This document shows positions 43,276 through 63,273 of a DNA stretch of 64,000 nucleotides, in pieces (position 1 is the stretch's first letter; each line of letters begins with the position of its first letter). The notes beneath the pieces are model-generated. The model was not told the origin of the DNA, ran no database searches, and worked only from the letters and a program-made list of their open reading frames with translations. The translations under genes were made by a program, and so were the position numbers. This DNA comes from an uncultured archaeon (GTDB taxonomy: Archaea > Asgardarchaeota > Lokiarchaeia > Sigyniarchaeales > SOKP01), in contig CAZGJX010000001.1 in assembly GCA_964525635.1 (NCBI GenBank), forward strand, positions 1 through 64,000, read 5' to 3'.

Positions 43276-44742
43276 TTACTCTCTTAGAGCTTGAATATTG
43301 TTAAAAATATTATCAAATCTATTTTTTATAGAACCTACTAATCCTTCTTCTTCTGAAATTACTGAATTTATAGCAGCTTTTAAACCATAATGTCCTTCTG
43401 ATATTGATACTCTAATTGGTAAAGTCAAAAATTCATTGATTAGCATAGCGATTTCTTGGAATAATTGTATTATTTTCGGAAAATTTTCTTGTGTTTTATT
43501 TATAATTGACTGTTCAGGTGATAATAATCCATTTTCTCTTTCTTGATTCAATTCTTCCCAAATATTTTCTTTAAGGGTAGAAAAATTAATTCCTAAATCT
43601 TCTAAAGCAATTTGAGCTCCTTCAAAAAGAAAATTTATATCATCTCTACCAGAATAATTTTTGATATTTTCAACCATTTCATTTGGTGCTAATCCTTCTA
43701 AGAATTTAATTAATAGATTATGATAATCTTTTACTACATCTAAAGGCACAAATAATAATACCATCTCTTTAAGTTGTTTGAAAAAATATCCTGCCACTTT
43801 GGCGATTGTTTCATTTTTTAGTAATTTCTCAATAAACCTTCCATTTTCATTAAGTAAGTGTATAAGAAGAAATCCAATAATTCTTATCATATCTTCTTCA
43901 TAATTTCTAAAATAGTCAAAAAAATGCTCTGGTTCCATATTTAATTTATCTCTAATAATATCAGCAATTCTTTTTTTGATATTTTCTAATGGTTCATCAA
44001 TTAGTTCTTCTAATTTATCGAGAGAAAAAGATTCTTGTAATTGATCTAGAAGATCTACTTTATTTTTTTGAATTACTTCCTCTTCTATATCTGATTCAAG
44101 GATTACTTTAGATAATGTTTTATCTTTTAATTTTAATTGAGTCATTTTTTTCCATTCATTATAATCATAGATTTTACATAACAACTGAAGGCAATTATCA
44201 CCTTTTCCCATGCATTTTTGTTCTACAATTTTTATCCTATAATTATTTTTTTTTACTTTTAAGATAAAATTTGCAACACCTTGAAGCATTCCACATAATC
44301 CACAAGCCATTCCTTCTGTTTTATTACCCAATTTCGATATATTAAATGTATCTTCTGGTGATGTACCATAACTTGCACATATTGGACAGTGTTTAATCTT
44401 TAAAAGATAACTATTATAAATGGAATTTTCTTCTGAAATTTCTTCATAATCTAGCTCTTCTAATTCTTTACCAAATACAACTACCCATAATAATTCAAAA
44501 TAGTCTACAACTTTATCTGGACTTCCAGGCATGAATTTAAATATTGCAGAATGACGTTCACATGACTCCATTGCTGCTTGTTTCCCAACCTCCCTCATTA
44601 CCAATAGACTTAATTCTTCATCTTTAGTAATTTCATTGATTTCTTTGAGAATTTCTCTATAAATTAATGAATAGAATAAAGAACTAGTATTCCGACCAAA
44701 TGCTTTAGATATTTTTTTCATTAACCATTGAACGATTCCCAT
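43276..44742 (-). CDS. V4R-domain protein with helical C-terminal region
   Basis: REVGKQAA, CPIC, CGLCG.LQG, EQKC..KGD..C (V4R Cys pattern). Confidence 0.7.
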   Translation of the reverse strand: MGIVQWLMKKISKAFGRNTSSLFYSLIYREILKEINEITKDEELSLLVMREVGKQAAMESCERHSAIFKFMPGSPDKVVDYFELLWVVVFGKELEELDYEEISEENSIYNSYLLKIKHCPICASYGTSPEDTFNISKLGNKTEGMACGLCGMLQGVANFILKVKKNNYRIKIVEQKCMGKGDNCLQLLCKIYDYNEWKKMTQLKLKDKTLSKVILESDIEEEVIQKNKVDLLDQLQESFSLDKLEELIDEPLENIKKRIADIIRDKLNMEPEHFFDYFRNYEEDMIRIIGFLLIHLLNENGRFIEKLLKNETIAKVAGYFFKQLKEMVLLFVPLDVVKDYHNLLIKFLEGLAPNEMVENIKNYSGRDDINFLFEGAQIALEDLGINFSTLKENIWEELNQERENGLLSPEQSIINKTQENFPKIIQLFQEIAMLINEFLTLPIRVSISEGHYGLKAAINSVISEEEGLVGSIKNRFDNIFNNIQALRE

Positions 44743-45254
44743 TACATTCCACCTTCAATTTTATATTTAAATATTTGAACGCAATATTTATTTCCAAATG
44801 TTTTTGATTCTTGAATTTTTAATGGTTCAATTAATAGGATTGTTTTATTTTTTGAATTAATATTAATAATATTTATAAATTCAGATATTAATCCTAAGAG
44901 AATTTCACATCCAGCAATTTGAATATCATCATATTCATATTTACATAATGCACAGTTGGTATCATTAACAATGATTAATTGTTCATTTTCATTCAATTCC
45001 ACTGAAATCGAGCTTTTTAAAACTTTTTTATATATTGTAGCAATCACATCCCTAATATTATTTAAATCAACTAGTTCAGTTGGACTCCAATATTTAATAT
45101 AGGTTTTAGAAATATTCTTACCAATTCTTTGCATTCTCTCTTTTTTATCATCAATATTATTTTTTGCCATAAAACGAGCCAGATGATAAATTGCATTTCT
45201 TAATTGATTTATTGCAGCATCAGCATGTAATAATTCATTTCTTGAGTAATTCAT
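44742..45254 (-). CDS. V4R/Bet3-fold-like small protein
   Basis: RIGKNI, CALC, GCEILLG, ESK..G...C; abuts the larger V4R gene. Confidence 0.6.
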   Translation of the reverse strand: MNYSRNELLHADAAINQLRNAIYHLARFMAKNNIDDKKERMQRIGKNISKTYIKYWSPTELVDLNNIRDVIATIYKKVLKSSISVELNENEQLIIVNDTNCALCKYEYDDIQIAGCEILLGLISEFINIININSKNKTILLIEPLKIQESKTFGNKYCVQIFKYKIEGGM

Positions 45255-45460
45255 TATTTTTACTAAATATGTTTAATGTTTATGATATTATGTGAAAAAA
45301 TAGAAGATATTTAAAATTTTTAATTAGATTAAAAATATTATTTGTATCTATTTCAAGATATTAATTTCTAAATTATTATTAAATAATAATTATTATCATA
45401 TGATTTTATCTAATTAAATTAAAATTATCAAGAAAAATAGTATATATTATTATAATATAG

Positions 45461-45846
45461 TTACATTTGTTCTATAATTGCTCTCAACATATCTTCTCCA
45501 CATGCTCCCACCATTTTTCCATTTTGTATATGATTTTGACCATTTACTTCTATATTTTTTTCTATTAATTCCCCATCTTTGAAAAACAACAGGGTTGGGA
45601 TTGCGTGTATATTAAACATATTACCCAATGGTCTATTTTGATCTAAATCAACTTGTATTATATTTATTAATCCTTCATCTCTTAGCTTATGTAAAATTGG
45701 TGTGATGAACTTTCATGATGATTTATCTAATTATTAAATCATTTGCATGGTCCGCACCAAACAGTATAAATATCTATGATAAGCTTTCCTTTTTTCATTT
45801 CCTCTGTAACTGGAATGTTCACATCTTTTAATTTATCGATATTCAT
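45461..45846 (-). CDS. trxA: Thioredoxin, 117 aa after removal of a 32-nt intron (exons 45846-45744 and 45711-45461)
   Basis: Spliced product MNIDKLKD...IIDIYTVWCGPCK|FITPILHKL...QVDLDQN...FNIHAIPTLLFFKDG...MVGA; absent from the ORF track. Confidence 0.9.
45712..45743 (-). other. BHB-type intron in thioredoxin mRNA (32 nt)
   Basis: mRNA GGAC-CAUG-CA^A-AUGAUUUA-(9-nt loop)-UAAAUCAU-CAUG-AA^A-GUUC: canonical 3-4-3 BHB; the cuts restore UGC AAG UUC. Confidence 0.88.
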
Positions 45847-46237: not shown

Positions 46238-46744
46238 ATGTTAACAATAGATTTTGATTTTCGAAACCAAATCATTCAGTCTGATATTGGAAAAACATTG
46301 GTATATTGTTACCAATGTGCTACTTGTTCTGGAGCCTGTCCAGTAGCACAAGTAACTAATGGACGCTATAATCCAAGAAGACTAATTTTAACATCATTAT
46401 TAGGTTTAAAAGAAAAGATATTTGGTGCTGAAAATTCTTTTGAGATTTGGGGGTGTACAGTGTGTGATACATGCGATGAACTATGTCCACAAAAAGTTGA
46501 ACTTACAGAAATATTTACAATACTTAAGAATATCAGCGTAGAGCGAGGAGAGGCTCCCGATCATTATACTATGCAGGCATCAACTATATTGGAAAATGGT
46601 AAAGCAATTCCAATGCAGAGTGCCATAGAAAGGAGAAGAGAACAATTAGGATTGCCTAAAATTGTAAATCCAGATATTAATGAGGTAAAAAAGCTTTTAA
46701 AAGCTACTGAATTAGAAAAAAAAATCCCTAAACAAGAAAAATAA
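46238..46744 (+). CDS. hdrC: Heterodisulfide reductase subunit C-like Fe-S protein
   Basis: CYQCATCSGACP, NPRR, W.CTVCDTCDELCPQ. Confidence 0.85.
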   Translation: MLTIDFDFRNQIIQSDIGKTLVYCYQCATCSGACPVAQVTNGRYNPRRLILTSLLGLKEKIFGAENSFEIWGCTVCDTCDELCPQKVELTEIFTILKNISVERGEAPDHYTMQASTILENGKAIPMQSAIERRREQLGLPKIVNPDINEVKKLLKATELEKKIPKQEK

Positions 46745-62261: not shown

Positions 62262-63273
62262 TTAAATTGGAACTGGAATTTCCTCCATAATATTTTTTAT
62301 AACAGCTCTGACGTCAAGACCTTCTAATTCTGCTTCTGGTTTTAATAACAGACGATGATTCAATGCAGGGACAGTTAATGCTCTTACATCATCAGGAGTT
62401 ACATAAGTTCTTCCTAAGATCGCAGCTCTTGCCTTAGAGCATTTCATTAGTACTAAACTTGCTCTAGGACCACATCCTAATCCAATTTGAGGATGGTTTC
62501 TTGTTTTAAGAATTATATCTCTAATATATTTTAGAATTCTCTCATCGATATATACTTGATTTACCAAATTCTGAGCAGCAAGTATTTCTGGTCCACTAGT
62601 GATACGTTGGACAGTTGGTGAGTCTCCAGACAATTGTCGTCTCATGATTTCAACTTCTTCATCATGTTCTGGATAATCCAGCCATAATTTAAACAAAAAT
62701 CTATCAACCTGAGCTTCAGGTAATGGATAAGTCCCTTCCATCTCTACAGGATTCTCTGTTGCTATTACCATAAATGGTTTTTCGAGTTCCAAGGTTTGAC
62801 CTTCTATTGTAATTTGCCGTTCAGCCATGGCTTCAAGGAGTGCTGCTTGTGTTTTAGGAGCACTTCTATTAATTTCATCCGCTAATACGATGTTTGCAAA
62901 TAAAGGTCCTTTTTGAAGCACGAATGTTCCTTCTTCTTGTGAGAATATTTTTGTACCGGTAATATCTGCCGGAAGAAGATCTGGTGTGAATTGTACTCGT
63001 TTAAAACTTACACCTAAAGTATTTGCAAATGTTTTAGCCATTACTGTTTTACCTAGTCCCGGAACGCCTTTTAACCAAATAATTCGAATTGAATTAAATT
63101 TCTAGTAAGACGTGTCCGTTGACAAGTAAGGATACAAATAATTGCTGAAGAATTTCTCCACATCCCACAATAACTCTACTTACCTCTGAGAGTACCTCCT
63201 GAGCAATTTCTCTTATGGGGGTAATATCTAACTCGCTATGAGAAGCTGTTTTTATTTTACTTGGTGTTGACAT
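62262..63273 (-). CDS. moxR: MoxR-family AAA+ ATPase, 326 aa after removal of a 31-nt intron (exons 63273-63102 and 63070-62262)
   Basis: Spliced product MSTPSK...VIVG...[10 protein letters not shown]|[12 protein letters not shown]...[12 protein letters not shown]...LADEINR...[14 protein letters not shown]; the track ORF lacks Walker A. Confidence 0.9.
63071..63101 (-). other. Relaxed BHB-type intron in moxR mRNA (31 nt; boundary could slide 1-2 nt)
   Basis: mRNA ACGUCU-UACU-AG^A-AA..UAAUUC-loop-GAAUUA.UU-GGUU-AA^A-AGGCGU; removal gives CUA GAA GGC. Confidence 0.78.

What the first reader, a model, noticed from the sequence alone, without database searches (positions are those of the whole stretch)
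45712..45743. Canonical BHB intron immediately after the WCGPC active site of a hidden thioredoxin
The mRNA reads UUGGUG-C-GGAC|CAUG|CAA|AUGAUUUA AUAAUUAGA UAAAUCAU|CAUG|AAA|GUUC-AUCA-CACCAA. This gives an 8-bp perfect intron stem, a 4-bp CAUG/CAUG central helix, two 3-nt bulges and exon stems GGAC/GUUC and UUGGUG/CACCAA. Cutting after the second nt of each bulge removes 32 nt and yields ...WCGPC-K-FITPIL..., a complete 117-aa thioredoxin. Unspliced, the frame stops at UGA after 35 aa.
Basis: partly seen in the sequence, partly recalled or inferred. Interest (0 to 1): 0.95.

Follow-up and report, generated by a model that had tools for sequence, protein, structure and literature searches.

The report
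tRNA-type mini-intron in Asgard thioredoxin gene
A thioredoxin gene of an Asgard archaeon is broken by a 32-base hairpin that relatives have kept as a shape rather than a sequence, so it is very probably an intron cut out of the messenger RNA by the tRNA-splicing enzymes, a kind of splicing I found published for only one other archaeal coding sequence (cbf5).

Summary
Observation confirmed. Removing 45712-45743 (minus strand) gives a complete 117-aa WCGPC thioredoxin; unspliced, the frame stops after 35 aa. The insert is a canonical bulge-helix-bulge (BHB), the lowest-energy fold; random genomic 32-mers match that geometry 13 times in 1.5 million. The host is an Asgard archaeon (same-genus genomes are titled Promethearchaeota) encoding a two-subunit EndA and RtcB. 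Seven other orthologues carry 30-34-nt inserts at the same point, in all three frames, with different sequences but the same fold and compensatory pairs. Both exons are under purifying selection (dN/dS about 0.1-0.27), and synonymous exon bases are held to pair (8/8 carriers, 5/45 non-carriers). The same gene has two further intron sites in relatives; one genome has two introns around a 16-nt micro-exon encoding WCGPC. The genome's only aIF2-gamma gene is broken the same way. Best reading: an EndA/RtcB-spliced mRNA intron (about 0.9). Splicing itself is not shown, because no RNA data were available. The mechanism is known from crenarchaeal cbf5; the Asgard, multi-gene, multi-intron setting was not found in the literature searched. 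This scan already noted such introns in other genes of this genome and in thioredoxins of other genomes.

The parts
45744..45846 (-). Exon 1 of the thioredoxin gene (103 nt: start codon to the WCGPC motif plus the first base of the Lys codon)
   Evidence: Pfam Thioredoxin profile 17-34
45745..45759 (-). Codons of the WCGPC active-site motif; they also supply the 5' strands of the outer and central helices
45712..45743 (-). 32-nt BHB intron: last base of bulge 1, 8-bp hairpin with 9-nt loop, 3' strand of the central helix, first two bases of bulge 2; holds the in-frame UGA at 45741-45739 and shifts the frame
45746..45749 (-). Central helix, 5' strand (exonic)
45743..45745 (-). Bulge 1; predicted 5' splice site between 45744 and 45743
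   Evidence: cut rule from PMC2738675
45718..45742 (-). Inner hairpin of the intron (8 perfect pairs, 9-nt loop)
45714..45717 (-). Central helix, 3' strand (intronic)
45711..45713 (-). Bulge 2; predicted 3' splice site between 45712 and 45711
45697..45710 (-). Exon-2 strands of the outer helix (45710-45707) and of the distal exon stem (45702-45697), pairing with 45753-45750 and 45760-45755
45461..45711 (-). Exon 2 (251 nt, Lys35 to stop); no ATG before Met31 of its own frame and no active site on its own

Best explanation
The 32 bases are an archaeal BHB intron in the thioredoxin mRNA. The transcript folds so that the WCGPC codons, the insert and the next exon codons form helix-bulge-helix-bulge-helix (shown by folding and by covariation). 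The cell's two-subunit splicing endonuclease EndA cuts both 3-nt bulges after their second base, and RtcB joins the exons to give an mRNA for a 117-aa thioredoxin (inferred: enzymes present, substrate shape canonical, reaction not observed). Unspliced RNA yields only a 35-residue stub. The intron is most likely a tolerated passenger, not a conserved switch: most orthologues lack it, and introns come and go at three sites of this gene. It is one of a small set of such introns in conserved genes of this Asgard family. How introns arrive is open; I favour insertion at mRNA hairpins that already resemble the spliced product (the joined exons form a stem with a 7-nt loop, like an anticodon arm), but that is inference.
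For: (1) Geometry beyond chance: 13/1,500,000 random 32-mers; BHB is the MFE. (2) Same-site inserts in 7 other orthologues: three same-genus genomes (32 nt), two other genera (30 and 31 nt), two metagenome contigs (34 nt); each removal at the BHB cut points gives a full thioredoxin; synteny shows true orthology for the six genomes. (3) 96% of 136 cells pair; all four inner-stem pairs and one central-helix pair (A-U to U-A) change on both sides; slid controls pair 31-52%. (4) Exon 2 dN/dS 0.12-0.14 for this genome against same-genus carriers and 0.04-0.24 across measurable carrier pairs; exon 1 0.11-0.27 within the genus; synonymous sites near saturation between genera. (5) Synonymous exon positions that close the outer helix pair in 8/8 carriers and 5/45 non-carriers. 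(6) EndA alpha and beta genes and RtcB present; alpha is closest to the Aeropyrum pernix enzyme among solved structures, E 4e-37, aligning through the loop and the Tyr/His/Lys positions. (7) The only aIF2-gamma gene of the genome is broken inside GHVDHGKT by a 29-nt BHB insert, and 28 genomes of the family show a 29-30-nt insert in that motif, so the organism must remove such inserts somehow.
Against: No spliced molecule has been seen. Two of eight carriers have a G.A mismatch in the central helix, and the introns at the other two sites are relaxed forms. The carriers are not independent: about four lineages, so shuffle and Fisher numbers overstate. The genome has intact thioredoxin paralogues, so this gene alone need not be essential.
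Confidence: 0.9

Rival explanations
1. Pseudogene: a small hairpin insertion killed a redundant thioredoxin and the BHB look is chance.
For: Intact paralogues exist on other contigs; the palindromic central helix makes a 7-nt imperfect direct repeat that looks like a target-site duplication.
Against: No other lesion in any of 8 carriers; dN/dS far below 1 on both exons across saturated synonymous distances; fold kept by compensatory changes.
Confidence: 0.02
2. Translational recoding: the ribosome frameshifts, reads through or hops over the hairpin.
For: A hairpin with a stop just after matching codons recalls ribosomal bypassing (own knowledge); the genome has a tRNA-Sec.
Against: Insert lengths 30, 31, 32 and 34 need three different frame corrections at one site; the stop is UGA here but UAA or UAG in others; conserved 3-nt bulges and a 4-bp helix are an EndA signature that bypassing does not need.
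Confidence: 0.02
3. EndA cuts the motif to destroy or regulate the mRNA, with little productive ligation.
For: EndA processes a BHB in the 5' UTR of a Haloferax mRNA (PMC7714728); human RTCB activity is redox-regulated by thioredoxin (PMC10653391).
Against: Selection on both exons and a frame restored exactly in every carrier require that full protein be made; patchy presence argues against a conserved control circuit.
Confidence: 0.03
4. The insert is removed at the DNA level (miniature mobile element or programmed excision), or intron-less alleles coexist.
For: Patchy presence and three sites in one gene suggest mobility.
Against: No second copy in the genome (nearest 25-mers differ at 4-5 positions); no sequence family among carriers; pairing with exon bases and 3-nt bulges make sense for RNA only; no joined form in four DNA runs or in the metagenome scan (weak, contigs drop rare variants).
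Confidence: 0.02
5. Assembly artefact.
For: The genome is a 245-contig metagenome assembly.
Against: A 374-nt contig from another sample covers the insert with no difference; seven other assemblies have inserts at the same base.
Confidence: 0.01

Closest known systems
BHB intron in the cbf5 pre-mRNA of Desulfurococcales and Sulfolobales (Watanabe 2002; Yoshinari 2006; Yokobori 2009, PMC2738675)
   Same: Short intron inside a coding sequence; BHB at the exon-intron borders; cuts between second and third bulge bases restore the frame; variable intron interior; patchy presence among relatives; host has a two-subunit EndA.
   Different: Asgard host; thioredoxin; canonical rather than mostly unconventional BHB; three intron sites in one gene, with double-intron genes and a 16-nt micro-exon; several unrelated genes affected in one genome; splicing not yet shown by cDNA.
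Archaeal tRNA introns, including the repeatedly gained introns of Asgard tRNA genes (PMC11291895; bioRxiv 10.64898/2026.10.13.758758)
   Same: Same motif, similar size, same predicted enzymes; repeated gain at limited positions; route of arrival unknown.
   Different: The substrate is an mRNA. The preprint has no occurrence of 'mRNA', 'cbf5' or 'Lokiarch' and concerns Jordiarchaeia and Atabeyarchaeia.
BHB intron in the 5' UTR of Haloferax HVO_1309 (PMC7714728)
   Same: EndA acting on an mRNA BHB.
   Different: Non-coding position; the reading frame does not depend on it.
XBP1/HAC1 non-spliceosomal mRNA splicing in eukaryotes (RTCB role in PMC10653391; rest own knowledge)
   Same: A short frame-breaking intron removed by endonuclease plus tRNA ligase.
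   Different: Cut by IRE1 at two stem-loops, not by EndA at a BHB; regulated by stress; no regulation shown here.

Membership tests
Archaeal BHB (EndA/RtcB) introns | 4-bp central helix flanked by two 3-nt bulges on opposite strands, each 3' of the helix | tested here: met
   4/4 pairs in 6 of 8 carriers, 3/4 in two
Archaeal BHB (EndA/RtcB) introns | Flanking helices: exon-exon stem and intron stem | tested here: met
   outer helix 100% paired, inner stem 94% paired with two-sided changes
Archaeal BHB (EndA/RtcB) introns | Cuts after the second bulge base restore the functional RNA | tested here: met
   full thioredoxin frame in all 8 carriers; five adjacent registers are equivalent in this genome
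Archaeal BHB (EndA/RtcB) introns | Host is an archaeon that encodes EndA and RtcB | tested here: met
Archaeal BHB (EndA/RtcB) introns | Structure conserved while the interior sequence varies | tested here: met
   (about four independent lineages)
Archaeal BHB (EndA/RtcB) introns | Spliced RNA or excised circular intron observed; cleavage by EndA | not testable with these tools
   no RNA holder listed
Thioredoxin (PF00085) | WCGPC motif and profile match over the domain | tested here: met
   exon 2 alone passes the Pfam cut-off (34.1 against 23.5 bits) and exon 1 supplies the motif; an intron-less orthologue matches TIGR01068 at E 1.5e-21 but below its equivalog cut-off
Miniature mobile element (MITE/REP-like) | Multiple similar copies in the genome | tested here: not met
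   single copy
Group I / group II introns | Ribozyme core of hundreds of bases | tested here: not met
   32 nt in all

The most novel reading that the evidence does not exclude
This Asgard family runs a non-spliceosomal mRNA-splicing programme over several core genes, with ongoing intron gain and ordered removal of neighbouring introns around micro-exons, and the thioredoxin intron is spliced conditionally (for example through the redox sensitivity of RtcB), a prokaryotic parallel of XBP1-type regulated splicing. The multi-gene, multi-intron half is likely (about 0.8); regulation has no evidence here and sets the probability.
Probability: 0.1. Interest if true: 0.95.

Novelty: new variant of a known kind. 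Interest (0 to 1): 0.8.

Why it matters
In the papers searched, splicing inside an archaeal coding sequence rests on one gene, cbf5. If this holds, a family of Asgard archaea, the closest prokaryotic relatives of eukaryotes, splices the mRNAs of several core genes with its tRNA machinery, including two-intron mRNAs with a 16-nt exon. Gene callers truncate or miss these genes, so Asgard gene inventories are affected. Close relatives that differ by single introns at three sites of one 350-nt gene give a direct test case for the open question of how BHB introns arrive, and the 76-nt substrate is easy to assay with recombinant EndA.

Tried and rejected
No RNA holder listed among sequencing runs; this is no evidence either way. 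Four DNA runs showed no joined form. A folding z-score was not significant (-1.5). An intrinsic genome-wide scan for BHB plus frame-joining was too noisy in this 27% GC genome: 39 candidates against 22-30 for wrong bulge sizes; it recovered this intron and aIF2-gamma but most rows are probably chance. A homology survey with 320 kb of a relative found no split gene among 157 matched frames, some of them antisense shadows, so such introns are rare per gene. No 16S gene is assembled, so taxonomy rests on titles of same-genus genomes. A 12-base word shared by the insert and the 3' flank is marginal (shuffle p about 0.05). The gene tree puts carriers in four places but has weak deep support, so repeated gain versus repeated loss is unresolved; I did not run a test of one clade. 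Sigma-70 promoter scans are uninformative for archaea. I did not hand in the joined protein for folding or profile searches, because it has no reference; exons and an intron-less orthologue were used. Literature searches found no report of mRNA BHB introns in Asgard archaea; subscription journals are mostly not covered.

Full report
Observation. On the minus strand an ORF starts at 45846, runs through the codons for WCGPC and stops at UGA after 35 residues; the rest of a thioredoxin follows in another frame to 45461. Removing 45743..45712 gives one frame of 117 aa. The overall folding z-score is weak (-1.5), but the specific geometry is rare: 13 of 1.5 million random genomic 32-mers and 1 of 300,000 shuffles give a full central helix and an 8-pair stem at this junction. 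A contig from another sample carries the insert unchanged. The insert has no second copy in the genome.

Host and machinery. The genome is 4.45 Mb, 26.8% GC, and is found in salt-marsh metagenomes. Genomes of the same genus are titled Promethearchaeota, so the host is an Asgard archaeon, of the Loki type by inference. It encodes two EndA subunits and one RtcB. The catalytic subunit is closest to the Aeropyrum pernix enzyme among solved structures and aligns through the specificity loop and the catalytic positions. Asgard EndAs are reported as the two-subunit type with that loop, which also cuts relaxed motifs (PMC5829648).

Orthologues at this site. Among 135 genomes of the family, 122 match exon 2. 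Six have an insert right after WCGPC: this genome, its three genus mates (32 nt), and two other genera (30 and 31 nt). Two metagenome contigs add 34-nt inserts. Gene neighbours are shared among the six genomes and an intron-less relative. The interiors differ in sequence, yet 96% of cells pair, all four inner-stem pairs change on both sides, and the central helix switches one A-U pair to U-A; slid controls pair 31-52%. In all eight, cutting by the BHB rule gives a full thioredoxin. The lengths cover all three frames, which no single frameshift explains. Exon 2 has dN/dS of 0.12-0.14 between this genome and its genus mates, and synonymous sites are near saturation between genera, so the split gene has stayed functional for a long time. 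A further test uses the exons only: the third bases of the Gly and Lys codons close the outer helix, and both pair in 8 of 8 carriers but in 5 of 45 non-carriers. The carriers form about four lineages, so these counts are not independent draws.

Other sites in the same gene. Relatives carry a 30-32-nt intron just before the Trp codon (8 genomes, 3 metagenome contigs; relaxed helix with an A.G pair and a C-G to U-A switch) and a 34-35-nt intron 30 codons downstream (3 contigs). One genome has introns on both sides of the active site, leaving a 16-nt exon for WCGPC; three contigs have other pairs. Nearly identical genes differ in which introns they hold, which points to turnover. Deep branches of the gene tree are weak, so gain versus loss is not settled.

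Other genes. My scan of the genome was noisy but recovered a 29-nt BHB insert inside the GHVDHGKT motif of aIF2-gamma, the only copy found in the genome. A pattern search shows 29-30-nt inserts in that motif in 28 genomes of the family and in none of the 12 matched genomes of the neighbouring family. A 31-nt insert breaks the Walker A motif of a MoxR gene in this window, at 63069-63099. A sample of a relative's genes showed no further split, so the introns are few and lie in strongly conserved motifs, which is also where they are easiest to see. Earlier notes of this scan list more such genes in this genome and thioredoxin introns in other genomes; I checked only moxR and the thioredoxins.

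Mechanism. Shown: the frame break, the fold, its conservation, selection on both exons, and the enzymes' genes. Inferred: EndA cuts both bulges and RtcB ligates the exons, as for tRNA introns and for cbf5 mRNA (PMC2738675). The joined exons fold into a stem with a 7-nt loop, which follows from BHB geometry and suggests, without proving, that mRNA hairpins resembling an anticodon arm are the entry points. A recent preprint on Asgard tRNA introns found repeated gains and no general route of arrival. A regulatory role is possible, since human RTCB is controlled by thioredoxin (PMC10653391), but the patchy distribution argues for a tolerated passenger.

Comparison and verdict. It works like, and by every testable feature is, an archaeal BHB intron; the defining experiment could not be run. 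The literature searched names cbf5 as the only coding-sequence case and a Haloferax 5' UTR as a second mRNA substrate, and no paper on Asgard mRNA introns turned up. I rate it a new variant of a known kind: known chemistry, new lineage, several genes, several introns per gene. Confidence in splicing 0.9; interest 0.8.

Noticed in passing
G000 contig C142:4667-4695, minus (L089:1368-1396): 29-nt BHB insert with an in-frame UGA inside GHVDHGKT of the only aIF2-gamma gene found; 28 genomes of the family show a similar insert. The N-terminal exon also carries a long extension that looks like a helix-hairpin-helix domain (by eye only).
   Followed up: partly
window 63069-63099, minus: 31-nt insert in the Walker A motif of a MoxR ATPase gene; removal restores [14 protein letters not shown]; folds as a BHB-like structure.
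   Followed up: partly
L026 (G015), around 1729-1830, minus: Thioredoxin orthologue with two introns (32 and 31 nt) enclosing a 16-nt micro-exon that encodes WCGPC.
   Followed up: yes
L126, L128, L134, about 95 nt after the WCGPC codons: Third intron site (34-35 nt, between Glu and Lys of LGEKFG) with no outer helix; these contigs also carry an intron at one of the other two sites.
   Followed up: yes
G000 contig C174:4329-4670, minus (L090): Thioredoxin paralogue with an in-frame UGA in place of the first Cys (W-UGA-GPC). The genome has a tRNA-Sec, so it may be a selenoprotein, or a pseudogene. A second paralogue on that contig reads WSAPC.
   Followed up: no
G000, one contig with 22 tRNA calls between 19098 and 26273 (C54): Dense array of mostly intron-less tRNA genes, unusual for the rest of the genome; possibly a virus, a mobile element or binning contamination.
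   Followed up: no
window 46238-46744 (+) and 44742-45254, 43276-44742 (-): The thioredoxin lies divergent from a stand-alone HdrC-like 4Fe-4S gene and upstream of two genes without Pfam match; this order is conserved in carriers and in an intron-less relative.
   Followed up: partly
window about 45402-45417, minus: A 12-base word shared with the intron lies in the 3' flank; marginal against shuffles (p about 0.05).
   Followed up: yes
G044, G050, G055 (single-contig genomes of the neighbouring family): They lack the aIF2-gamma insert and the thioredoxin insert pattern. By size two may be the cultured Lokiarchaeia (my inference), which would explain why such introns went unnoticed.
   Followed up: no
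G000 contigs C121:10928-10956 (-) and C62:16268-16296 (+): Two further 29-nt BHB candidates from the noisy scan, with GC-containing helices near gene starts; unverified.
   Followed up: no
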